A stretch of 40,000 nt of DNA from contig NZ_AP014545.1 of NCBI RefSeq assembly GCF_016592435.1, forward strand, positions 1,518,693 through 1,558,692. The letters are read 5' to 3'. The DNA comes from Amphritea japonica ATCC BAA-1530. GTDB lineage: Bacteria > Pseudomonadota > Gammaproteobacteria > Pseudomonadales > Balneatricaceae. Position numbers and translations under genes: made by a program. The stretch's first letter is position 1; every line of letters starts with the position of its first letter. Positions 13,513 to 26,877 of this stretch are shown here, piece by piece. The notes beneath the pieces are model-generated. The model did not search any database, had not been told where the DNA came from, and saw only the letters and a list, made by a program, of their open reading frames with translations.

Positions 13513-13538
13513 AAACGCGCCTGAGGGCGCGTTTTTTT
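13513..13538. terminator. bidirectional terminator between phnA and intI
   Basis: AAACGCGCC-TGAG-GGCGCGTTT followed by a T7 run. On the other strand the A-run becomes a T-run after the intI stop. Confidence 0.6.
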
Positions 13539-14496
13539 ATAGTAAGTCTAACGGGCTGGACGTTCCCGCATAATGTTCGCCTATTACATGAGTGTAGATT
13601 TGAGTGGTTTTTACATCACTGTGACCTAGTAGTTCCTGTACGGTTCTTATATCCCTACCGGCCTCAAGCAAATGCGTTGCAAAAGAGTGTCGGAAGGTGT
13701 GGCAGCTCACCCGTTTGAATCGGATCTCAGTTTTAGTGAACGCCTGTTTAAGTGCTTTTCGTGGCGCCGAATTATGTAAATGATGCCGGCATAACTGCCC
13801 AGACAATGGATGCGGGCTCAGCGTGTTTGACGGGAAAAGATACATCCAGCCGGGTTGGCGAAAAGCGTTTGGGTATTTTCTACCAAGAGCAAAGGGCAAA
13901 GAAGGGCCAAGACCCTGGCTGTTGTCTTCTTGTTGGAGCTTTATCGCTTTAGACATTTGCGCCTCAATGGCTGGAAACAGACTTCGACTTAAAATTGTTT
14001 GTCGGTCTTTATTTCCTTTGCCGTCGCGTACTAATAAAGCACATCGTTCAAAACAGATATCCTGAAGGCGTAAGCGCAGACATTCAGTAATTCGAAGGCC
14101 GCTGCCGTATAGCAGCGAAATTATGAGTCTGTGACGGCCTTTCAATTGGCTCAGTACCGCATTAACTTCTGCTGGAGTTAAGACTACGGGAAGTCTCCTT
14201 GGGCGTTTTGCTTGCTTAAAACCCAGTTCACCTAGCTCAATTTTAAGTATTTTGTGGTACAAAAAAGCTAAGGCGTTCAGTGCTGTTTTTTGAGTATTAA
14301 TGGCGACATGTTGTTGGTTTGCCATCCAGGATAAAAATTCTTTAACCTGTACAGGGCCCATATCCGCGGGGTGCTTCTTATGATGAAAAAGGATATAGCG
14401 CTTGATCCACAAAAGATAAGTCTTTTCAGTGCGTATGCTATATCCGCGTAATCTAATCTCTTTGCGAACCTGTTCCAGAAAAGGACTTTTTGACAT
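13537..14496 (-). CDS. intI: integron integrase IntI (tyrosine recombinase)
   Basis: Start set at ATG 14496 (MSKSPFLEQVRKEIRLRGYS...), preceded by AAGGAGG. Catalytic residues are present: GLRITECLRLR, HTFRHSFATHLL, GHSDVKTTQIYTHV. The IntI-specific insertion (LSGQLCRHHLHNSAPRKALKQA) is also present. The track ORF reaching 14730 is an unlikely 78-aa extension. Confidence 0.9.
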   Translation of the reverse strand: MSKSPFLEQVRKEIRLRGYSIRTEKTYLLWIKRYILFHHKKHPADMGPVQVKEFLSWMANQQHVAINTQKTALNALAFLYHKILKIELGELGFKQAKRPRRLPVVLTPAEVNAVLSQLKGRHRLIISLLYGSGLRITECLRLRLQDICFERCALLVRDGKGNKDRQTILSRSLFPAIEAQMSKAIKLQQEDNSQGLGPSLPFALGRKYPNAFRQPGWMYLFPSNTLSPHPLSGQLCRHHLHNSAPRKALKQAFTKTEIRFKRVSCHTFRHSFATHLLEAGRDIRTVQELLGHSDVKTTQIYTHVIGEHYAGTSSPLDLL

Positions 14497-14518
14497 AAGA
14501 CACCTCCTTGTGAAGTTA

Positions 14519-14818
14519 TGTGCATCTGTATGTATATACAGTTTATTTTGTTCTGTCCAGCAGTTATGCTCAGTTTGTCGTTTTTGATAAGCGTGTTTTG
14601 TTACTTCAATGTGTAGCAAAACATTAAGAAAACAAAGGGATAGGTTAAAAACGCTGGCGGGATAGTGAGCCGGGTTAAGAATGCATATGCGCATTCTCGT
14701 TTTTGTCTTAAAGGAGATCGCGATGTTCAATAATTCCTCTTTATTATCTGATAGTTATCCTTCTTTTCATCAATTCTTCCTGGCATGCATGTGCGCCGGC
14801 GTAGTATTAAAATGTTAT
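14519..14818 (+). other. attI platform 1 (intI/cassette promoter region, leader, recombination core GTTAT at 14814-14818)
   Basis: This is the region between the intI start and the first cassette. It ends in AAAATGTTAT, whose GTTA matches the R' cores of the attC sites. It is duplicated colinearly at 26325-26626. Confidence 0.7.
14526..14541. promoter_or_regulatory. LexA (SOS) box in the intI promoter region
   Basis: CTGTATGTATATACAG matches CTGT-N8-ACAG exactly. It lies 30 bp upstream of the intI start codon. Confidence 0.65.
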
Positions 14819-14827
14819 ATGTTTTAG
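14723..14827 (+). CDS. attI leader small ORF (34 aa) reading across the recombination core
   Basis: AAAGGAGA lies 6 nt before the ATG. Translation: MFNNSSLLSDSYPSFHQFFLACMCAGVVLKCYMF. A homologous ORF sits at 26531-26626. Below the ORF-track size cutoff. Confidence 0.4.
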   Translation: MFNNSSLLSDSYPSFHQFFLACMCAGVVLKCYMF

Positions 14828-14853
14828 CCAATGAGGTTACTTTGAGAAAATTA

Positions 14854-15051
14854 ATGAGAGTATTGGGAGGTATAGTCGGTCTGCTTTTCGTCTTAGGCTT
14901 TACTTTTATGCTCTCAGAGAAAGTGGTGACATCTTTGTCAGGGATATCAGGAGTAACCACTGGTCTGTATTTCCTGATTTTTGCAATCACAGGTGAATCT
15001 AGTTTATTAAAAGGAATTAAAGAAATTGGTAATAAACTCTCACACCGTTAA
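14854..15051 (+). CDS. cassette 1: small two-TM membrane protein
   Basis: Internal ATG of track ORF 14785-15051, because the upstream part overlaps attI. Translation MRVLGGIVGLLFVLGFTFML...TTGLYFLIFAITG shows two hydrophobic helices. Confidence 0.45.
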   Translation: MRVLGGIVGLLFVLGFTFMLSEKVVTSLSGISGVTTGLYFLIFAITGESSLLKGIKEIGNKLSHR

Positions 15052-15054
15052 CAC

Positions 15055-15114
15055 ATATAACAAATCGCATAAGCAAGGACGCAGCAAGCTGCGCCGCTTA
15101 GCTTTGCGTTATGT
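15055..15114 (+). repeat. attC 1 (60 bp)
   Basis: R'' is ATATAAC and R' is GTTATGT. Inner arms AAATCGCATAAGCAAGG / GCTTAGCTTTGCG are imperfectly complementary. Confidence 0.8.
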
Positions 15115-20924: not shown

Positions 20925-21013
20925 CTAAGGAAAAGTTATGCTTAGGGATGTGTTTTTTCTGAATAGTTTAGGCTAATCAGAAGAGCTTTAATCAGCGGAT
21001 TTCTCAGAGATTA
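20925..21013 (+). pseudogene. decayed remnant of a cassette-10-like cassette (array 1 end)
   Basis: CTAAGGAAAAGTTATGCTTAGGGATGTGTTTTTTCTGAATAG... parallels 19780-19870. It hits TAA after 12 codons, and the homology stops near 21013. Confidence 0.5.
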
Positions 21014-21046
21014 GAAAATCGTTGCTCAACTAGCTTGGAAAAATGA

Positions 21047-21071
21047 AGAGCGCTTAGACGCTCTTTTTTTT
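21047..21071 (+). terminator. rho-independent terminator closing array 1
   Basis: AGAGCG-CTTAGA-CGCTCT followed by a run of eight T. Confidence 0.6.
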
Positions 21072-21344
21072 CGCTCAAATATGAGAGTTTATTAGACTCT
21101 GTTGGTGCAATTTACAAGTAATGAGTAAGGTCTGGATGAAGTTGTTTTCTAATGCTTAACGACTATTCTTATTTCAAACTGTTGTTTTAATTTGCTCAGG
21201 CAAAGCACGGCATCGAGCAATATGCGTAACAGCTAAAGTGTTTTTGGCGAAGGGGTAGTGCTTATAGCGAGCTCTTGGATAAGAGTTTTATCGCTAATCG
21301 GACGAATCCCCTAAGTTTATCAACGACGATAGAGGGAGTTTGAT

Positions 21345-22895
21345 ATGTCTACGCTGAACAAACTACTGGGGTTCGCCAAACGATTACCTGGCGTTGCTAA
21401 GCTTGCTAATCGAATCGCATCTAATAAGTTAGCGTCAGCCACAACACCCCGGCCCCATAGCCATAGTTTGTGGTCGCCCCTCGATAAAGTTGATGCCTCG
21501 CCCAGTGAATATCTGACCTGGCATACGGTCACCGATAAAAACTACTTCGATCGTCATCTTGCCCCGGCTGATGATCGTTTTATGAATGCCTTACCATCAA
21601 ATGAGGGGACGACTGAATTCCCTTTCGGTGAGGTTACCGCCTTGTTTGAGCGAAAAGGTGGAATGAAGGAAGACCGTTCATCGGTCTTTTTTATGTTTGT
21701 TGCTCAATGGTTCACCGACGGTTTTTTCCGTTCCAGTCATATCGATTTCAGACAGACCACCTCCAACCATAACATCGACCTTGCCCAGATATATGGTTCT
21801 AACGAAGCGGTAGCACTGATGCTCCGCTCAGGGGAGGGCGGCAAGTTGCGTAGCCAGATGATAGGGGGTGAAGAGTATCCGGATTCTCTTGGCGAACTGG
21901 ATGAAAACGGTGTCTGGCAGGTAAAAGATCGTTATAAAAACCTACCTTACATCGCTGATAAAGAGTGGATGGAGTCTATTTTTGGTGGGTTAACTGACTC
22001 GCAGAAAGACAAGCTATTCGCGACAGGGCTGGAGAGGGGGAACTCAATTGTTGGGCATATGGTGATGAGTACCTTGTTTCTAAGGGAGCACAACGGTATC
22101 TGTGATCAGCTGGCTAGCCGAAATCCCGGTTGGGACGATGATCGGTTATTTCACACCGCGCGCATCATCAATACTGTCATCCTGATGAAACTCATTATCG
22201 AAGATTACGTTAACCATATCGCCGGTCTGGATGTTCTGGTGATGGATAATTCATTCGTTGAGAAACAGCAGTGGTACCGTACTCCCTGGATAGCGGCAGA
22301 ATTCAATCTGCTTTATCGCTGGCACGGCTTAGTACCTGATGCGCTAAAGGTTGCGGGCAGAGATGAGAGCCTCGTTAAAAACTTTGATCTGCTGATCAGG
22401 GAAGGCCTGAGCAGTCTGTTAGAAGCGGCAACATTGCAGGTGGCCGGTAAAATATCACTGGACAATGTCCCCGGATTTTTAATGCCCGCAGAGCAGGCGA
22501 TGATCAACAAAGGCCGGGACTGGCGGTTACGGTCTTTTAATGATTATCGCGTTCAGTTTGGTCTGTCCCGATTAGACTCGTTCGATCAGGTGACTGACGA
22601 TACTAATCTCAACGCAAGCCTTAAAAGACTCTATAGCGACATTGATAATCTGGAACTCACCGTAGGGTTGTTTGCAGAAGATGGAGGCAGCACGCTGACA
22701 GGCGAGCTACAGACCGCCATGGTGGCCTACGATGCGCTGACACAGATATATACGAATCCTTTACTGGCAAAGGAAAACTTCTGCGATAAGCACTTCACCG
22801 CTTACGGTATGGAGCGAATCGATGCCACGAAGTCGTTTCAGGATCTGGCTGATCGCAATACCAATCGACTGGTGAAGGTTAGTGTTAAGAGGTAG
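21345..22895 (+). CDS. haem peroxidase / cyclooxygenase-like fatty-acid oxygenase family protein
   Basis: 516 aa with AGAGGGAG upstream. FVAQWFTDGFF aligns with COX FAQHFTHQFF. NLLYRWHGLVPD aligns with COX LYHWHPLLPD (Tyr and proximal His). RSFNDYRVQFGL aligns with COX SFNEYRKRFGL. Confidence 0.75.
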   Translation: MSTLNKLLGFAKRLPGVAKLANRIASNKLASATTPRPHSHSLWSPLDKVDASPSEYLTWHTVTDKNYFDRHLAPADDRFMNALPSNEGTTEFPFGEVTALFERKGGMKEDRSSVFFMFVAQWFTDGFFRSSHIDFRQTTSNHNIDLAQIYGSNEAVALMLRSGEGGKLRSQMIGGEEYPDSLGELDENGVWQVKDRYKNLPYIADKEWMESIFGGLTDSQKDKLFATGLERGNSIVGHMVMSTLFLREHNGICDQLASRNPGWDDDRLFHTARIINTVILMKLIIEDYVNHIAGLDVLVMDNSFVEKQQWYRTPWIAAEFNLLYRWHGLVPDALKVAGRDESLVKNFDLLIREGLSSLLEAATLQVAGKISLDNVPGFLMPAEQAMINKGRDWRLRSFNDYRVQFGLSRLDSFDQVTDDTNLNASLKRLYSDIDNLELTVGLFAEDGGSTLTGELQTAMVAYDALTQIYTNPLLAKENFCDKHFTAYGMERIDATKSFQDLADRNTNRLVKVSVKR

Positions 22896-22910
22896 AAGTA
22901 AAACCCTGGG

Positions 22911-22961
22911 GCGTTGTTCGAACGTCACAAAAAAACGTGACTTGCTCGTCGCTCGAAAAAG
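22911..22961 (+). repeat. family-2 repeat, Y module (unit A)
   Basis: GCGTTGTTCGAACGTCAC-AAAAAAAC-GTGACTTGCTCGTCGCTCGAAAAAG. It is nearly identical to 26236-26283. Confidence 0.7.
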
Positions 22962-22995
22962 CCCTCAAAAACCAACTTTAACACCTAAAAATATC

Positions 22996-23080
22996 ACCAC
23001 AGAGAACACCGAGAGCACGGAGAAGGACCGTTAACTAGCCTCTATCCGCTTTTCTCTGTGCTCTCTGTGTCCTCGGTGGT
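22996..23080. repeat. 85-bp imperfect hairpin (29-nt arms)
   Basis: ACCACAGAGAACACCGAGAGCACGGAGAA pairs with TTCTCTGTGCTCTCTGTGTCCTCGGTGGT. By hand count 25 of 29 positions are complementary, with a 27-nt loop. Confidence 0.6.
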
Positions 23081-23147
23081 AAAAGCTCTGAAGTAGCGGC
23101 TGGATGATCTGTTATCCTATGCGCTTCCCTCAAATAACAGCCAATCT

Positions 23148-24152
23148 ATGATGAGACGATCTTTTTTACCCCCCTGGTGGGCAAAGAACCCACATGTGCA
23201 GACGATTTTACCTGTGCTCACTAAGGTTGAATCCCCGGCACTTTCCCGCCAACGCCTGGAATTAGGTGATGGTGATTTTATCGATCTTGATTGGTTAGGT
23301 GACCCCCATAACGCCGGTAGCATTGTTGTTATTATGCATGGGCTGGAAGGTAGCTCTGATTCCCACTATATACGACGCTTACTGCAAGATTGTAATCGCC
23401 ATGGTTTATGCGCGGTTGTGCATCACCATCGGGGCTGTTCGGGTGAGCCGAACCGTTTAGCCCGCAGTTATCATAGTGGCGATACGCAAGATATTAGTGA
23501 CACCTTGGCGTACCTTAAAGAGCATTTCCCTCAAGCAAAACTGTGCGCTGTGGGTTATAGCTTAGGGGGGAATGTGTTGACTAAATATCTGGGCGAGATG
23601 CAGAGTGATAGCACCATAGACCGTGCGGTTGTTGTCTCGGCCCCACTGCAGTTATCAGCCTGTGCCAAGCGATTAGAAAAGGGGTTTTCGACTCTTTACC
23701 AATGGCATCTGATTAAGCAGCTTCGAGATAAACTCACCGATAAATTTAATCATCGAACCATTGTCGATCAAGCATCGGTGACGCCGAAGCAAGTCAGTAC
23801 ACTGAAAACGTTTTATCAATTTGATCACCGGGTGACTGCGCCACTGCATGGCTTCGAGGGTGTTGATGATTACTATGCTAAAGCCAGTGGATTTAGTTAT
23901 TTGGCGAAGATTGACCGACCAACGTTAGTCATACATGCCGCTGATGATCCGTTCATGAATGCAGACGTAATCCCATCAGCTAACCAGTGCTCCGCAGATG
24001 TAACCTATGAACTGCATCAACAGGGTGGTCATGTCGGCTTTATTGACGGTGGTTCTCCACTAAAACCACGCTACTATTTAGAACAACGTATTATTCATTT
24101 TCTGACGATAAATAAAGCTGTAGCTAGTGATGAAGCAATCGCTAGTGGTTAG
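23148..24152 (+). CDS. alpha/beta-fold hydrolase, YheT/ABHD1-3-like
   Basis: 334 aa. N-terminal FLPPWWAKNPHVQTILP, then HGLEGSS, the nucleophile elbow GYSLGGN, and late D (AADDPF) and H (GGHVGF). Confidence 0.8.
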   Translation: MMRRSFLPPWWAKNPHVQTILPVLTKVESPALSRQRLELGDGDFIDLDWLGDPHNAGSIVVIMHGLEGSSDSHYIRRLLQDCNRHGLCAVVHHHRGCSGEPNRLARSYHSGDTQDISDTLAYLKEHFPQAKLCAVGYSLGGNVLTKYLGEMQSDSTIDRAVVVSAPLQLSACAKRLEKGFSTLYQWHLIKQLRDKLTDKFNHRTIVDQASVTPKQVSTLKTFYQFDHRVTAPLHGFEGVDDYYAKASGFSYLAKIDRPTLVIHAADDPFMNADVIPSANQCSADVTYELHQQGGHVGFIDGGSPLKPRYYLEQRIIHFLTINKAVASDEAIASG

Positions 24153-24219
24153 ACGTAGCTTCGCTACTTGCCAGAACGTCGCTACGCGACTCGCTAGGAA
24201 AAGATTAAAAGCCGTAAAC
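24141..24219 (+). repeat. family-2 repeat, X module (unit B)
   Basis: GCTAGTGGTTAGAC-[GTAGC TTC GCTAC]-TTGCCAGAAC-[GTCGC TAC GCGAC]-TCGCTAGGAAAAGATTAAAAGCCGTA. It overlaps the hydrolase stop codon. Confidence 0.7.
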
Positions 24220-24240
24220 TGTAAATAAAGGCAGGACTCA

Positions 24241-24648
24241 ATGAAAGAGATCACACGAATTAATCATGTAGGGCTTCGGGTTAGAGATTTAGATACCGCT
24301 AGAAAATTCTACGAGCAACTCGGATTTAAATTCATTGCAGGTCCGGTTGGTCCAGAGCCTGCGGCTATCGTTGAGCACCCATCAGGTATCAATATCAATT
24401 TCATTCTCAACGCATCTGATGATGCTCCGGAAGATAATATTCTAATGAAACAGGATATAAAATATCCTGGCTATACACATATCGCGTTGGAGATAACTGA
24501 CGCAGAGGTCGTGTCTAAGAAAATTGAAGAGCTGGGAATAACAATCACTGAACGGGTAGAGATTAATGGTGCAAAATTCTTCTTTATCAGAGACCCGGAC
24601 GATAACGTCATAGAGCTTCATCAGGCCTCAAATAAGAGCAGTAGCTAG
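24241..24648 (+). CDS. VOC/glyoxalase-family protein
   Basis: 135 aa. INHVGLRVRDLDTARKFYEQLGF ... HIALEI ... FFIRDPDDNVIELH is the typical glyoxalase I fold signature. Confidence 0.8.
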   Translation: MKEITRINHVGLRVRDLDTARKFYEQLGFKFIAGPVGPEPAAIVEHPSGININFILNASDDAPEDNILMKQDIKYPGYTHIALEITDAEVVSKKIEELGITITERVEINGAKFFFIRDPDDNVIELHQASNKSSS

Positions 24649-24738
24649 TGGTTAGACGTGGCTTCGCCACTTGCTAGAACGTCGCAATGCGACTGCTAGG
24701 GAAAGACTAAAAGCCGTAGCGCGTTGTTCGATCGTCAC
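24644..24738 (+). repeat. family-2 repeat, X module plus partial Y (unit C)
   Basis: GCTAGTGGTTAGAC-[GTGGC TTC GCCAC]-TTGCTAGAAC-[GTCGC AAT GCGAC]-TGCTAGGGAAAGACTAAAAGCCGTAGCGCGTTGTTCGATCGTCAC. Confidence 0.7.
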
Positions 24739-24762
24739 ATTCACATGGGATATTAAGTCAGA

Positions 24763-25446
24763 ATGATCAAGCACAACGTTCTCAATAACCTGTTCCAAGG
24801 AAAGGTAAAGCAAAGCTTTGGGCTAGAGACAGGGATGGAGAAATCGCCTGTGGAAGGGGATATTTACCTATCTATTGAAGGCCTGGAAGGTGACGCCTGT
24901 GCGGATAAAAATCACCATGGTGGCTTAGAGCGTGCCCTTCATCAGTATCCATCTGAACACTACAAATATTGGTGCAAGCGATATGGGACAGGGTTTCAAT
25001 GGCATGCGCCGGGCATGGGAGAGAATCTTAGCTCTACGGGTATGACAGAGCAGAACGTTTGCATCGGCGATCGTTTTAGCTGGGGTGATGCGGTTATTGA
25101 GATAAGCCAGCCTCGCTCTCCCTGCTATAAACTCAATACACGGTGGGGTATAGAAGACTTTTCTATCCATATGCAGGAGATCAGTCGATGCGGGTGGTTG
25201 TATCGAGTGATCGAGCCCGGAATAGTCAATGTTGATAAGCCGCTTCGGCTGATTGAGCGGGTCCCTGACGCGCTAACCGTTCGTCAGGTATGTGATATCT
25301 ACTTCGGCAACCCACTCGATCAAGAGGGCTTGTGTAAACTAAAACAGCAAACGAGATTGTCTGATAGCTGGATGCAAAAAGTTGTCCAGCGTATAGACAC
25401 AGGTGAAGTTGAAAACTGGAATTTTCGATTATTGGGCCACGCTTAA
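24763..25446 (+). CDS. MOSC-domain protein (YiiM-like)
   Basis: 227 aa. GDACADKNHHGGLERALHQYPSEHYKYW and ISQPRSPCYKLN (conserved Cys) are typical of the MOSC/YiiM family. Confidence 0.8.
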   Translation: MIKHNVLNNLFQGKVKQSFGLETGMEKSPVEGDIYLSIEGLEGDACADKNHHGGLERALHQYPSEHYKYWCKRYGTGFQWHAPGMGENLSSTGMTEQNVCIGDRFSWGDAVIEISQPRSPCYKLNTRWGIEDFSIHMQEISRCGWLYRVIEPGIVNVDKPLRLIERVPDALTVRQVCDIYFGNPLDQEGLCKLKQQTRLSDSWMQKVVQRIDTGEVENWNFRLLGHA

Positions 25447-25487
25447 TCGTTCAACATGAGTTGCGTGCGAAGATTTGGAGCAGAAGC

Positions 25488-25590
25488 CAGTGGTTAGACG
25501 TGGCTACGCCACTTGCTAGAACGTCGCTACGTGACTGCTAGGGAAAGATTAAAAGCCGTAGCTCGTTGTTCGAATGTCGCTAAGCGACAT
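25488..25590 (+). repeat. family-2 repeat, X module plus variant Y (unit D)
   Basis: CAGTGGTTAGAC-[GTGGC TAC GCCAC]-TTGCTAGAAC-[GTCGC TAC GTGAC]-TGCTAGGGAAAGATTAAAAGCCGTAGCTCGTTGTTCGA-[ATGTCGC TAA GCGACAT]. Confidence 0.7.
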
Positions 25591-25599
25591 GATAGGCAT

Positions 25600-26118
25600 T
25601 TAGGTCGGTGCTTTGTTATCTGCGCTTGATTTTTCGGCTAATAAATCCAAATAACCCTTATCCAGGCCTTTTCTTGAAAGGTAGTTAGTACCGCCCTTAT
25701 GGATGACTATAAAACCTTTCTCAGTGGTCTTTAATTCATCAATATCGTTCCAGAGGATACTTTGCTGGTGGTGAGCGCTGTCGCTATAGATACCCTGATC
25801 ATCAATCCGAATATTGACCCGGCTACCGGCCCTGCGACTAAGCATTTGACGGGTTACCCACCAACCGCGTTTATAGCGAATAGATAGCAGTTCAACAGCG
25901 CAGAGGGCGAGTAGAAACCATGCAATATAGGGGTCAGACTCTTGGGCAAAAAACACACCGGCGAGAATGACCAGTATTATCACCTGACGGTATGTTTTGA
26001 GGCTGAGAGTAGTATTCGCAGATTCGTCAAAGCACTCAATGAAGTATTCACGATTGAGGATATAGTAGCTGCTCTGATCTGTACTGGTGCTGCTGTTAGG
26101 GTGGGCGGTGTCTGTCAT
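25600..26118 (-). CDS. YcxB-like membrane protein
   Basis: 172 aa. Two TM helices (VIILVILAGVFFA, IAWFLLALCAVELL), then a soluble domain with ILWNDIDELKTTEKGFIVIH. It is the only minus-strand gene in the island. Confidence 0.5.
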   Translation of the reverse strand: MTDTAHPNSSTSTDQSSYYILNREYFIECFDESANTTLSLKTYRQVIILVILAGVFFAQESDPYIAWFLLALCAVELLSIRYKRGWWVTRQMLSRRAGSRVNIRIDDQGIYSDSAHHQQSILWNDIDELKTTEKGFIVIHKGGTNYLSRKGLDKGYLDLLAEKSSADNKAPT

Positions 26119-26214
26119 ACTCTGGCCTGGCGATGTAAGGACAATGTTGTAGGAACGCTAGTGTAGCAAATCTGGCAAATGAAGCTTGATTAGTTAAAGG
26201 GCTCTAATCGATTT

Positions 26215-26283
26215 AGTCTTTAAAAGCCGTAGCTCATTGTTCGAACGTCACAAAAAGCGTGACTTGCTCGTTGTTCGAAAAAG
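26215..26283 (+). repeat. family-2 repeat, X tail plus full Y module (unit E)
   Basis: AGTCTTTAAAAGCCGTAGCTCATTGTTCGAACGTCAC-AAAAAGC-GTGACTTGCTCGTTGTTCGAAAAAG. It directly abuts attI platform 2. Confidence 0.7.
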
Positions 26284-26333
26284 TAATTGTCAAAAGTATC
26301 AATTCTCCAGTACTGTTATAGTTAGTGCATAGC

Positions 26334-26349
26334 TTGTATGTATAAACAG
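26334..26349. promoter_or_regulatory. relic LexA-box-like sequence
   Basis: TTGTATGTATAAACAG has one mismatch to CTGT-N8-ACAG. It is positionally equivalent to the box at 14526-14541, with a 3-nt insertion immediately upstream. Confidence 0.35.
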
Positions 26350-26530
26350 TTTATTTTGCATATAGCAGTAGTTATGCTCGTTTTATCGTTAGACAAAGGC
26401 TCGTTTTGCTGCTTATAAGTTTTGCAAAACTGAAGAAATACAAAGGGATAGGTATAAAACGCTGGTGAGATACTGCGCCAGGTAAAGAATGCATATGCGC
26501 ATTCTCGTTTTTGTCTTAAAGGAGATCACG

Positions 26531-26626
26531 ATGTTCAGTAATTCCCTTCTAAGATCAGATAGTTATCACCCCTTTTGTGACTTTAGCTCGGCATGCATAT
26601 GCGCCGGCCTAGTATTAAAATGTTAA
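26531..26626 (+). CDS. attI leader small ORF, copy 2 (31 aa), stop codon inside the GTTAA core
   Basis: Same SD (AAAGGAGA) and spacing as copy 1. Translation: MFSNSLLRSDSYHPFCDFSSACICAGLVLKC. 20 of 31 residues are identical to copy 1, with no gaps. Confidence 0.4.
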   Translation: MFSNSLLRSDSYHPFCDFSSACICAGLVLKC

Positions 26627-26646: not shown

Positions 26647-26877
26647 ATGAAATCACTACTTATAATCATAATTGGATTATTTGCATCATGGCATTTCACG
26701 GACTTATCCTCTGATAGCAGCCTTTATAGTGTTCTCGCTCCATTAGGTGTATTCATTTTTCTAATCTCATTAGGTATTTGGCTCGTTTTGAAAGCAGGCT
26801 TTGGAAGAAGAGATGATGGAGGGGTTGGTTATCATGGTAATGATGGAGGTTTTGGTGGAGATGGTAGCTGTGACTAA
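26647..26877 (+). CDS. array 2 cassette 1: small membrane protein with Gly/Asp-rich tail
   Basis: 76 aa with two TM helices, then RRDDGGVGYHGNDGGFGGDGSCD. Confidence 0.45.
   Translation: MKSLLIIIIGLFASWHFTDLSSDSSLYSVLAPLGVFIFLISLGIWLVLKAGFGRRDDGGVGYHGNDGGFGGDGSCD

What the first reader, a model, noticed from the sequence alone, without database searches (positions are those of the whole stretch)
14723..14827. Conserved SD-led small ORF translated across the attI crossover point in both platforms
Seen in the sequence:
- Copy 1 encodes MFNNSSLLSDSYPSFHQFFLACMCAGVVLKCYMF.
- Copy 2 (26531-26626) encodes MFSNSLLRSDSYHPFCDFSSACICAGLVLKC.
- The two share 20 of 31 residues with no gaps, and have the same SD and spacing.
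- The last conserved codons (VLKC = ...AAA TGT) end exactly at the GTTA core. The stop codon is therefore supplied by the core or the first cassette: TAA within GTTAA in copy 2, and TAG 9 nt into cassette 1 in copy 1.

Established knowledge: in class 1 integrons a short attI ORF (ORF-11) enhances translation of cassettes lacking their own initiation region.

Inference: this looks like an analogous but unrelated and longer leader. It would deliver ribosomes to whatever cassette is inserted, and its C-terminus changes with every insertion. The conserved Cys-rich tail (ACxCAG) could alternatively reflect DNA-level constraint from IntI binding sites.
Basis: partly seen in the sequence, partly recalled or inferred. 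Interest (0 to 1): 0.7.

Follow-up and report, generated by a model that had tools for sequence, protein, structure and literature searches.

The report
Small leader ORF spanning integron attI
A 31-codon mini-gene with a strong ribosome-binding site runs across the cassette-insertion point of an Amphritea chromosomal integron; it is built like ORF-11 of clinical class 1 integrons, which boosts translation of newly captured genes, but whether it is actually translated remains untested.

Summary
Both small ORFs exist as described, with AAGGAG, a 6-nt spacer and ATG, and they stay open up to the GTT core.

The window is the Amphritea japonica chromosomal integron. I recovered 16 copies of this attI (13 distinct sequences) next to at least 12 different first cassettes. 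In all of them the ATG is kept, there are no indels, and the frame is open to the crossover. The stop is TAA or TAG at core positions 3-5, or lies 3-13 codons into the cassette. That is the ORF-11/ORF-18 layout of class 1 attI1, in the same frame.

The peptide itself is not under selection: variable columns fall 13/11/13 by codon position, and pN/pS is 0.8. The 'ACxCAG' tail is a DNA palindrome. It recurs upstream in non-coding DNA and in most related integrons.

Stop avoidance within the clade is not significant (P about 0.2). However, in 43 other IntI clades, SD-led ORFs crossing attI in this frame number 10 against 2.8 expected.

The cassette promoter could not be located, so translation remains inferred. 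Copy 2 has no integrase beside it.

Verdict: a plausible new variant of a known kind, of moderate interest.

The parts
13546..14496 (-). intI, integron integrase (317 aa)
   Evidence: Pfam PF13495 + PF00589. NCBIfam TIGR02249 'integron integrase', 409.6 bits against a cutoff of 265. 100% identical to Amphritea japonica WP_019621529.1.
14526..14541 (.). LexA-box-like palindrome CTGTATGTATATACAG between intI and attI
   Evidence: Read directly from the sequence. It matches the gammaproteobacterial CTGT-N8-ACAG consensus (my own knowledge; SOS control of intI is reviewed in PMC8876359). It is conserved in the orthologs. Copy 2 has TTGTATGTATAAACAG at 26334-26349.
14678..14709 (+). Upstream palindrome/hairpin AGAATGC-ATATGC-GCATTCT followed by CGTTTTTGTCTT, immediately 5' of the SD
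   Evidence: Terminator-like hit in both copies. RNA hairpin -8.3 kcal/mol. It is homologous in position to a GCATGC-centred palindrome about 132 nt upstream of the crossover in most related integrons.
14711..14716 (+). Shine-Dalgarno AAGGAG, 6 nt before the ATG
   Evidence: duplex with the anti-SD, -8.7 kcal/mol. Across the 16 orthologous copies there are 13 distinct sequences; the SD is AAGGAG or GGGAG in 9 of them and AAGGAA in 4.
14723..14827 (+). Small ORF, copy 1: 31 attI-encoded codons, 3 cassette-encoded codons, then TAG
   Evidence: It is intact in all orthologs.
14751..14760 (.). GATAGTTATC, a core-like (GTTA) direct-repeat element inside the small ORF; candidate accessory IntI-binding site
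   Evidence: Invariant block in alignment A3. The resemblance to the attI1 DR sites (GATGTTA) is an inference.
14782..14797 (.). Downstream palindromic motif GGCATGCATGTGCGCC, which encodes the 'ACxCAG' tail
   Evidence: It shares TGCATATGCGC with the upstream palindrome. The equivalent motif sits about 26 nt upstream of the crossover in most clades and co-varies with the upstream copy.
14814..14820 (+). attI core GTTATAT; the crossover follows G14814
   Evidence: Homology with all orthologs ends here, and at least 12 different cassettes follow it.
14842..15051 (+). First cassette ORF of array 1 (TTG at 14842 or ATG at 14854; small hydrophobic protein)
   Evidence: No family hit in NCBIfam. 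The small ORF's stop lies 15-27 nt upstream of these starts.
15050..15113 (+). attC of the first cassette (R' core GTTATGT at 15108)
   Evidence: Repeat family D2, 4 copies. List of cores.
26316..26625 (+). Orphan copy of the whole intI-attI intergenic region (copy 2), with no intI
   Evidence: 83% identical to copy 1 over about 300 nt. No intI remnant in the window. It is about as divergent from copy 1 as the orthologs from other species are.
26486..26505 (+). Copy 2 upstream palindrome/hairpin
26519..26524 (+). Copy 2 Shine-Dalgarno AAGGAG
26531..26626 (+). Small ORF, copy 2: 31 codons, then TAA formed by core positions 3-5 (GTTAA)
26647..26877 (+). First cassette ORF of array 2 (76 aa, weak SD)

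Best explanation
The small ORF is an attI-embedded leader ORF of the ORF-11/ORF-18 type in the Amphritea japonica chromosomal integron.

Proposed mechanism. Transcripts entering attI from upstream carry a strong translation initiation region: AAGGAG, a 6-nt spacer, then ATG. Ribosomes translate 31 codons across every recognisable attI element (the GATAGTTATC repeat, the GC-rich palindrome and the L/R core). They terminate either at the TAA/TAG formed by core positions 3-5 or a few codons into the first cassette. That places them within a few nucleotides of the cassette's own start. The expected effects are termination-reinitiation or coupling, melting of the palindrome hairpin in the mRNA, and protection of the untranslated leader. 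Whatever cassette was captured last would gain expression.

The peptide is a by-product. Its conserved C-terminal residues are dictated by DNA recombination or binding motifs.

Shown: the anatomy, its conservation in 16 copies, its frame, the absence of peptide-level selection, and the recurrence of such ORFs in other clades.

Inferred: that the cassette promoter lies upstream of 14723, that the ORF is translated, and that translation raises cassette expression.
For: - Canonical initiation region with -8.7 kcal/mol anti-SD pairing.
- ATG invariant, and no indel across 122 nt, in 16 copies (13 distinct sequences), although 37 of 93 ORF columns vary.
- It is the only one of six frames without stops in every copy.
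- In L082, five substitutions surround the GGAG and ATG without touching them, and they create a second in-frame ATG.
- Relocating the observed variable columns keeps the ATG and the open frame in only 2.3-2.8% of trials.
- Same frame as ORF-11: the stop falls at positions 3-5 of GTTRRRY (attI1 sequence). It is TAA or TAG in the core in 5 of 12 cassette contexts, and the ORF extends 3-13 codons in the other 7, like ORF-18.
- The small ORF's stop lies within 8 nt of a plausible cassette start in L001 (TGATG), L002, L089, L096 and L097.
- Several first cassettes have weak SDs (L090, L091, L094, window copy 2).
- In 43 other IntI clades, SD-led ORFs crossing the core in this frame number 10 against 2.8 expected from shuffles (0 of 300). 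With ATG starts only the figures are 6 against 1.1, and with dG <= -6 they are 7 against 1.2.
- Their starts cluster 85-94 nt upstream of the crossover, as here (-91).
- Copy 2 keeps the ORF despite about 17% divergence and no adjacent intI.
Against: - No cassette promoter could be placed upstream of the ORF. The consensus scan finds no plus-strand promoter in either attI region.
- Weak conserved promoter candidates include YYGGCA-16-TAGTAT, ending 7 nt before the crossover. TTGTCT-17-TTCAAT overlaps the SD and ATG. V. cholerae Pc lies 65 bp upstream of its crossover. Any of these would leave the ATG off the cassette mRNA.
- Stop avoidance alone is not significant (P = 0.19-0.23), because only 3.3% of single substitutions would create a stop.
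- The SD-like purine box after the upstream palindrome also occurs in clades that have no start codon, so it may have a DNA-level role.
- The SD is weakened to GGAA in 4 of 13 distinct sequences.
- The other two frames entering the cassettes also stop near the cassette start, so that geometry is generic rather than specific.
- More than half of the surveyed clades have no such ORF.
- 23 of the surveyed crossovers were predicted from the core motif rather than from a homology break.
Confidence: 0.5

Rival explanations
1. The ORF is a non-translated by-product. The region is conserved as DNA: IntI-binding repeats, two operator-like palindromes, and possibly promoter elements. The AAGGAG, the ATG and the open frame then persist because those DNA elements are constrained and because this frame happens to be poor in near-stop codons.
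For: - Variability in the ORF is about the same as in flanking non-coding DNA: 31% against 34%, and 37/93 against 31/88.
- There is no excess of third-position change (13/11/13), and pN/pS is 0.80 against 1.02 and 1.14 in the other frames.
- Stop avoidance gives P about 0.2.
- The purine box and the palindromes are conserved in clades with no start codon.
- A promoter-like TTGTCT-17-TTCAAT overlaps the SD and ATG. Twelve of 44 clades have a promoter-like hit whose -10 ends 81-90 nt upstream of the crossover.
- The peptide was never called as a gene in a collection of 15 billion proteins.
Against: - The putative -10 (codons 2-3 of the ORF) is among the most variable stretches in the clade, so that promoter model fits poorly here.
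- The ATG is invariant while 32 of the next 60 positions vary, and GGA(G/A) is kept amid neighbouring changes.
- The cross-clade enrichment of SD-led ORFs, strongest by far in the ORF-11 frame (10 against 2.8; 0 of 300 shuffles), is not expected from DNA constraints alone. The GTT frame shows none, and the xxG frame only a weak excess (8 against 3.5, P = 0.02).
Confidence: 0.3
2. The ORF is a regulatory leader. The hairpin plus U-run just upstream of the SD (14678-14709), together with the small ORF, forms an attenuator or translational switch that tunes cassette expression rather than simply enhancing it. Possible routes are read-through of a weak terminator, or ribosome stalling on the leader.
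For: - A terminator-like hairpin (-8.3 kcal/mol) followed by CGUUUUUGUCUU is 100% conserved in both window copies and its stem is kept in all orthologs.
- The leader folds slightly better than shuffles (z = -2.0).
- Translation-attenuation leaders are known in integron cassettes, for example cmlA.
Against: - The hairpin lies upstream of the ORF, not within or after it, so translating the ORF cannot remodel it in the classical way.
- RNAalifold finds no compensatory pairs at all.
- Rfam gives no hit.
- The same palindrome in other clades is a DNA-type perfect palindrome with no U-tract beyond its own arm.
- There is no conserved stalling motif, and the peptide is free to vary.
Confidence: 0.1
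3. The ORF encodes a functional Cys-rich micropeptide (conserved ACxCAG...LKC) with its own activity, for example metal binding or membrane association.
For: The C-terminal 11 residues are nearly invariant, and 3-4 cysteines are conserved in most copies.
Against: - The conserved residues map onto a DNA palindrome that also occurs in non-coding DNA 104 nt upstream and in unrelated clades.
- Cys codons are lost in natural variants: TGC to TAC in L084/L092 and in L089-L091.
- pN/pS is 0.8 in the remainder of the ORF.
- The C-terminus changes with each cassette, by 0-13 extra residues.
- Analogous ORFs in other clades have unrelated sequences.
Confidence: 0.03

Closest known systems
ORF-11 of the class 1 integron attI1 site (Hanau-Bercot et al. 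2002, as reviewed in PMC8876359)
   Same: - A short ORF inside attI on the cassette strand, with a canonical SD plus ATG.
- It overlaps the crossover.
- Its stop is supplied by positions 3-5 of the inserted cassette's GTTRRRY core.
- The reading frame is the same relative to the L and R boxes...CTA AAA CAA AGT TAG against ...TTA AAA TGT TAG.
- The peptide sequence is unimportant in ORF-11 and unconstrained here.
   Different: - 31 codons against about 11.
- It starts 91 nt upstream of the crossover, against about 35, and so covers the whole attI, including a GC-rich palindrome.
- The N-terminal two thirds show no sequence similarity.
- It sits in a sedentary chromosomal integron of a marine Oceanospirillaceae bacterium.
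- A palindrome plus T-run immediately precedes it.
- Pc has not been located, and function is untested here.
ORF-18 (ORF-11 extended into the blaOXA-1 cassette 5'UTR)
   Same: When the cassette core provides no stop (GTTAY or GTTG), the ORF runs into the cassette leader and ends at the first in-frame stop. That is 3-13 extra codons here, against 7 in ORF-18.
   Different: Here the extension differs for each of at least 7 cassette contexts. No expression data exist.
Short ORFs within attC sites that relieve hairpin blocks to translation (Jacquier et al. 2009, cited in PMC8876359)
   Same: The idea is the same: translating through a structured recombination site keeps ribosomes on the polycistronic cassette mRNA.
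   Different: Those ORFs lie in attC sites between cassettes. This one is in attI, at the head of the array.
Vibrio cholerae attIA regulatory region (Pc 65 bp upstream of the crossover, with a CRP box overlapping -35; PintIA with a LexA box)
   Same: It is a chromosomal integron whose regulatory sites are packed between intI and the crossover. A LexA box is present here too (14526-14541). The -10 hexamer TAGTAT also occurs here (14802-14807).
   Different: No small ORF has been reported for attIA. Here the TAGTAT lies 7 nt from the crossover rather than about 65. No CRP box was recognised.

Membership tests
attI-embedded translation-enhancing small ORF (ORF-11/ORF-18 type) | Located inside attI, on the cassette-sense strand, upstream of the crossover | tested here: met
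   The ATG lies 91 nt upstream of the crossover G. The crossover is defined by the homology break in 16 copies.
attI-embedded translation-enhancing small ORF (ORF-11/ORF-18 type) | Canonical translation initiation region (SD, proper spacer, ATG) | tested here: met
   AAGGAG, 6 nt, ATG; -8.7 kcal/mol against the anti-SD. The ATG is invariant. The SD is GGAG or GGGAG in 9 of 13 distinct sequences and GGAA in 4.
attI-embedded translation-enhancing small ORF (ORF-11/ORF-18 type) | The ORF overlaps the crossover; the stop is supplied by core positions 3-5, or lies further inside the cassette | tested here: met
   TAA or TAG in the core in 5 of 12 cassette contexts; a 3-13 codon extension in 7. The frame is identical to ORF-11.
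attI-embedded translation-enhancing small ORF (ORF-11/ORF-18 type) | Present on transcripts from the cassette promoter (Pc upstream of the ORF) | tested here: inconclusive
   No convincing conserved sigma-70 promoter was found. Weak candidates lie both upstream and downstream of the ATG.
attI-embedded translation-enhancing small ORF (ORF-11/ORF-18 type) | Mutating its SD or ATG lowers expression of a TIR-deficient first cassette | not testable with these tools
   This needs reporter or mutagenesis experiments.
attI-embedded translation-enhancing small ORF (ORF-11/ORF-18 type) | The peptide sequence is itself dispensable | tested here: met
   pN/pS is 0.80 against 1.02 and 1.14 in the control frames; variable columns fall 13/11/13 by codon position.
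Integron platform (intI + attI + cassette array) | Integron-type tyrosine recombinase | tested here: met
   TIGR02249, 409.6 bits (cutoff 265); PF13495 + PF00589.
Integron platform (intI + attI + cassette array) | attI with a GTT crossover followed by variable cassettes bounded by attC sites | tested here: met
   At least 12 different cassettes follow the same core. The attC repeat families end in GCGTTA. Copy 2 meets this feature but lacks an adjacent intI.
Leader-peptide transcription or translation attenuator | Alternative RNA structures whose choice depends on ribosome position on the leader ORF | tested here: not met
   The hairpin lies upstream of the SD. There are 0 compensatory pairs among 44 predicted. 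Rfam gives no match.
Functional small protein | Purifying selection on the amino-acid sequence | tested here: not met
   (pN/pS 0.8). The conserved tail is explained by a DNA motif that is repeated in non-coding DNA.

The most novel reading that the evidence does not exclude
Leader ORFs that cross attI in the ORF-11 frame are a selected, recurrent feature of sedentary chromosomal integrons, not a peculiarity of class 1. They sit between two co-varying palindromic sites about 105 bp (about 10 helical turns) apart, at roughly -132 and -26 from the crossover. Those sites bind IntI or an unknown regulator. Recombination-site occupancy, transcription and translation across attI would then be mechanistically coupled.
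Probability: 0.2. Interest if true: 0.7.

Novelty: new variant of a known kind. Interest (0 to 1): 0.5.

Why it matters
Integron cassettes are mostly promoterless, and many lack good ribosome-binding sites. How a freshly captured cassette gets expressed is central to the 'adaptation on demand' model.

The only documented translational helper is ORF-11 (with ORF-17 and ORF-18) in clinical class 1 integrons. In the literature I could search, no equivalent is described for chromosomal integrons, which are the natural reservoir of cassettes.

This locus supplies a concrete, testable example in a cultured strain, A. japonica ATCC BAA-1530. A comparative signal also suggests the design recurs in other marine gammaproteobacterial integrons.

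There is a practical caution as well. Conserved residues in such small ORFs can be imposed entirely by recombination-site DNA.

Tried and rejected
- **Rfam.** Gathering thresholds on the whole window gave nothing. A permissive scan of 14450-14900 gave only chance snoRNA-type hits.
- **Conserved RNA structure.** RNAalifold found 0 compensatory pairs. The single-sequence z-score was -2.0. I rejected this as evidence for a riboswitch or attenuator.
- **Peptide-level selection.** Rejected on the codon-position and pN/pS results.
- **Stop avoidance as proof of coding.** Not significant on its own (P = 0.14-0.23).
- **Phasing of cassette 5'UTRs to the small-ORF frame.** The stop of the small ORF often abuts the cassette start, but the other two frames behave similarly. 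I rejected this as specific evidence.
- **Locating Pc.** I tried a consensus scan, a position-weight-matrix (PWM) scan of six aligned copies, and a positional profile over 44 clades. The result was inconclusive. The T-run as -35 with a -10 over codons 2-3 fits poorly, because that -10 is highly variable in the clade.
- **Finding more copies.** A metagenome DNA-pattern scan gave 1 contig and a viral scan gave none. Exact peptide look-ups found nothing.
- **A second intI near copy 2.** None was found.
- **The repeats at 21000-26300.** I did not resolve the nature of repeat families D1 and D5.

Full report
**Observation.** Each is preceded by AAGGAG and a 6-nt spacer. Each ends its conserved part on the TGT codon that contains the G of the GTT core (14814 and 26622). 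Copy 2 stops at the TAA inside GTTAA. Copy 1 reads three cassette codons before TAG (14825-14827).

**Context.** The window is an integron of Amphritea japonica.
- The minus-strand gene 13546-14496 is an integron integrase: Pfam PF13495 + PF00589 and TIGR02249 at 409.6 bits against a cutoff of 265.
- It is 100% identical to WP_019621529.1 of A. japonica.
- Between intI and the small ORF lie a LexA-type box (14526-14541) and, immediately 5' of the SD, a 7-bp hairpin followed by a T-run (14678-14709).
- Downstream of 14814 come cassettes bounded by attC sites ending in GCGTTA.
- Copy 2 (about 26316-26625) reproduces the whole 300-nt intergenic region at 83% identity. It has no integrase beside it, and there is no intI remnant anywhere in the window. 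It is therefore an orphan attI heading a second short array.

**Orthologs and the crossover.**
- IntI relatives in genomes, one metagenome contig found through the hairpin sequence, and contigs encoding IntI cluster members gave 16 copies of this attI region, of which 13 are distinct.
- Homology stops exactly after ...AAAATGTT in all of them.
- At least 12 different first cassettes follow the core. Three different cassettes sit behind one identical attI in contigs from a single study (L089-L091). So the crossover is real and the site is active.
- In every copy the ATG is present, there is no indel in the 122 nt between the hairpin and the core, and the frame is open to the core.
- The stop is TAA or TAG at core positions 3-5 in 5 cassette contexts, and 3-13 codons inside the cassette in 7.

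**Coding or DNA constraint?**
- 37 of the 93 ORF columns vary, spread 13/11/13 over codon positions.
- pN/pS for codons 2-20 is 0.80, against 1.02 and 1.14 in the two other frames. The peptide is not under purifying selection.
- The frame is the only one of six without stops. Even so, only 3.3% of single substitutions would create one, so stop avoidance alone is unremarkable (P = 0.19-0.23).
- Counting loss of the ATG as well, relocating the observed variable columns preserves the ORF in 2.3-2.8% of trials. This is modest support.

**The 'ACxCAG' tail.**
- It is encoded by GCATGCATATGCGCC. The same TGCATATGCGC core forms the hairpin 104 nt upstream, in non-coding DNA.
- In most related integrons a GCATGC- or GCCGGC-centred palindrome occupies both positions, at about -132 and -26 from the crossover.
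- The two copies resemble each other more within a locus than between loci (10.70 against 10.05 matches per best 14-mer; 0 of 300 permutations).

**RNA-level ideas.**
- Rfam finds nothing.
- The consensus fold has no compensatory pair.
- The hairpin is weak (-8.3 kcal/mol), and in other clades it is a perfect DNA-type palindrome.

I found no support for a riboswitch or a classical attenuator.

**Promoter.** This is the main gap.
- The consensus scan finds no plus-strand promoter in either attI region.
- A PWM scan gives only weak candidates. TTGTCT-17-TTCAAT overlaps the SD and ATG, but its -10 is highly variable in the clade. YYGGCA-16-TAGTAT ends 7 nt before the crossover.
- Across 44 clades, promoter-like hits pile up with the -10 ending near -265, -185, -85, -65 and -5 relative to the crossover.
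- V. cholerae Pc lies 65 bp upstream of its crossover, while the P. stutzeri Pc lies inside intI.

Whether the ATG is on the cassette mRNA is therefore not established.

**Survey of other clades.**
- I defined crossovers by homology breaks or by the conserved core motif in 56 attI regions, giving 44 independent representatives.
- I then asked whether an SD-led ORF (anti-SD duplex <= -4.5 kcal/mol), starting 24-160 nt upstream, stays open through the core.
- Excluding Amphritea, the ORF-11 frame (xGT-TAx) has 10 such ORFs against 2.8 expected from dinucleotide shuffles (0 of 300). With ATG starts only the figures are 6 against 1.1, and with dG <= -6 they are 7 against 1.2.
- The xxG frame has 8 against 3.5 (P = 0.02), and the GTT frame 2 against 1.6.
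- Starts cluster 85-94 nt upstream of the crossover, just after the purine-rich box that follows the upstream palindrome, as in Amphritea. An example is Arenicella L055: MIKRINNIEGYSRFVKTNLSRKRACILISC|YMHKIRV.
- Their peptides are unrelated except where they read the shared DNA motifs.

Caveats: shuffles destroy motifs that are conserved for other reasons, about half the crossovers are motif-predicted, and more than half the clades have no such ORF.

**Comparison with what is known.**
- ORF-11 of attI1 has a GGAG 8 nt before its ATG, overlaps the crossover, and takes its stop from core positions 3-5. ORF-18 is the same ORF extended into a cassette that lacks that stop. Amino-acid changes in ORF-11 matter little, whereas SD or ATG changes abolish the effect.
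- The attI1 sequence, which I wrote from memory, matched at >=99% identity in at least 5000 plasmid records. Read in L098, it confirms the frame ...CTA AAA CAA AGT TAG.
- The Amphritea ORF meets every structural criterion of this kind, but it is three times longer, spans the entire attI and lies in a chromosomal integron.
- Four literature searches found attI-embedded ORFs described only for class 1.

**Mechanism and verdict.**
- Most likely (about 0.5): an ORF-11/ORF-18-like leader ORF that carries ribosomes across attI to the first cassette, with the peptide a by-product.
- Main rival (about 0.3): an untranslated by-product of DNA-level constraint.
- Lesser rivals: a regulatory leader using the hairpin and U-run (about 0.1), and a functional Cys-rich peptide (about 0.03).
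- The close spacing between the small ORF's stop and cassette starts (L001 TGATG; L002, L089, L096, L097 within 8 nt) fits reinitiation but is not specific, because the other frames also stop there.

Overall this is a new variant of a known kind, of moderate interest, and directly testable in a cultured strain.

Noticed in passing
window 26316-26625 (and array to about 29700): A complete copy of the intI-attI intergenic region heads a second short cassette array. It carries a degenerate LexA box, the palindromes, the small ORF and the core, but it has no integrase. The window contains no intI remnant. The copy is as divergent from copy 1 (about 17%) as the orthologs from other species are, so it is not a recent duplication. 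attI sites inside arrays are known for mobile integrons (PMC12901181), but I found no report for chromosomal ones.
   Followed up: partly
window 14678-14697 and 14782-14797; loci L003-L080 at about -132 and -26 from the crossover: Nearly all integrons of this IntI group carry two related GC-rich palindromes (GCGCATGCGC, GAGCATGCTC or GAGCCGGCTC types) about 105 bp apart. One is followed by TTT and a purine-rich box, and the other lies just upstream of the L/R core. The two copies co-vary within a locus (0 of 300 permutations). In some clades the upstream one is a perfect 22-26 bp palindrome, for example GTGTAAACGCGCATGCGCGTTTACAC in L070. What binds them (IntI or a regulator) is unknown, and I found no description in the literature I searched.
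   Followed up: partly
window 13537-14730 (minus strand): The intI reading frame stays open for 78 codons upstream of the true ATG, across the LexA box and up to the start of the small ORF. Public annotations of this integrase exist as 385-aa and 397-aa versions (P0001, P0122, P0123) alongside the 319-aa form. This is probably over-extension by gene callers.
   Followed up: no
window about 21000-26300: Between the two arrays lies a block with different repeats: three 101-nt copies at 24133, 24636 and 25478, and four copies of AAAAGCCGTAGC.CGTTGTTCGAA. Its genes are unusual for cassettes: a 516-aa animal-haem-peroxidase-like protein (21345-22895), an alpha/beta hydrolase, a MOSC/YiiM protein, and a YcxB-like gene on the minus strand. 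I did not resolve whether the repeats are atypical attC sites or another element.
   Followed up: no
L041 1880-2735 (minus strand), Paenalcaligenes suwonensis 191B: The first cassette behind a non-class-1 integron integrase (63% identical to the Amphritea IntI) encodes a VIM-family metallo-beta-lactamase (NCBIfam blaVIM, 580.8 bits against a cutoff of 500). An attI-borne GTG ORF with an SD reads in frame into it.
   Followed up: partly
L046-L048, L057-L060: One integron platform, comprising intI plus 370 nt of attI region, is about 99% identical across Advenella, Paenalcaligenes, Thiopseudomonas and 'Candidatus Aphodousia' genomes. This implies a mobile integron circulating among these genera. 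Its xGT frame is open for 50 codons, but no SD-led start was found.
   Followed up: no
window 14812-14814 and 14785-15051; most loci at the crossover: In most clades the crossover G is the last base of an ATG (AAATG|TTA), so attI supplies a potential start codon fused to every cassette in the xxG frame. In the window, the first cassette ORF is in frame with this ATG and with the ATG inside the palindrome (ORF 14785-15051). SD-led ORFs in this frame are mildly enriched (8 against 3.5).
   Followed up: partly
L089, L090, L091 (ENA PRJEB22097 assemblies): Three contigs from one study carry an identical attI region followed by three different first cassettes. This is direct evidence of ongoing cassette turnover at this attI in nature.
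   Followed up: no
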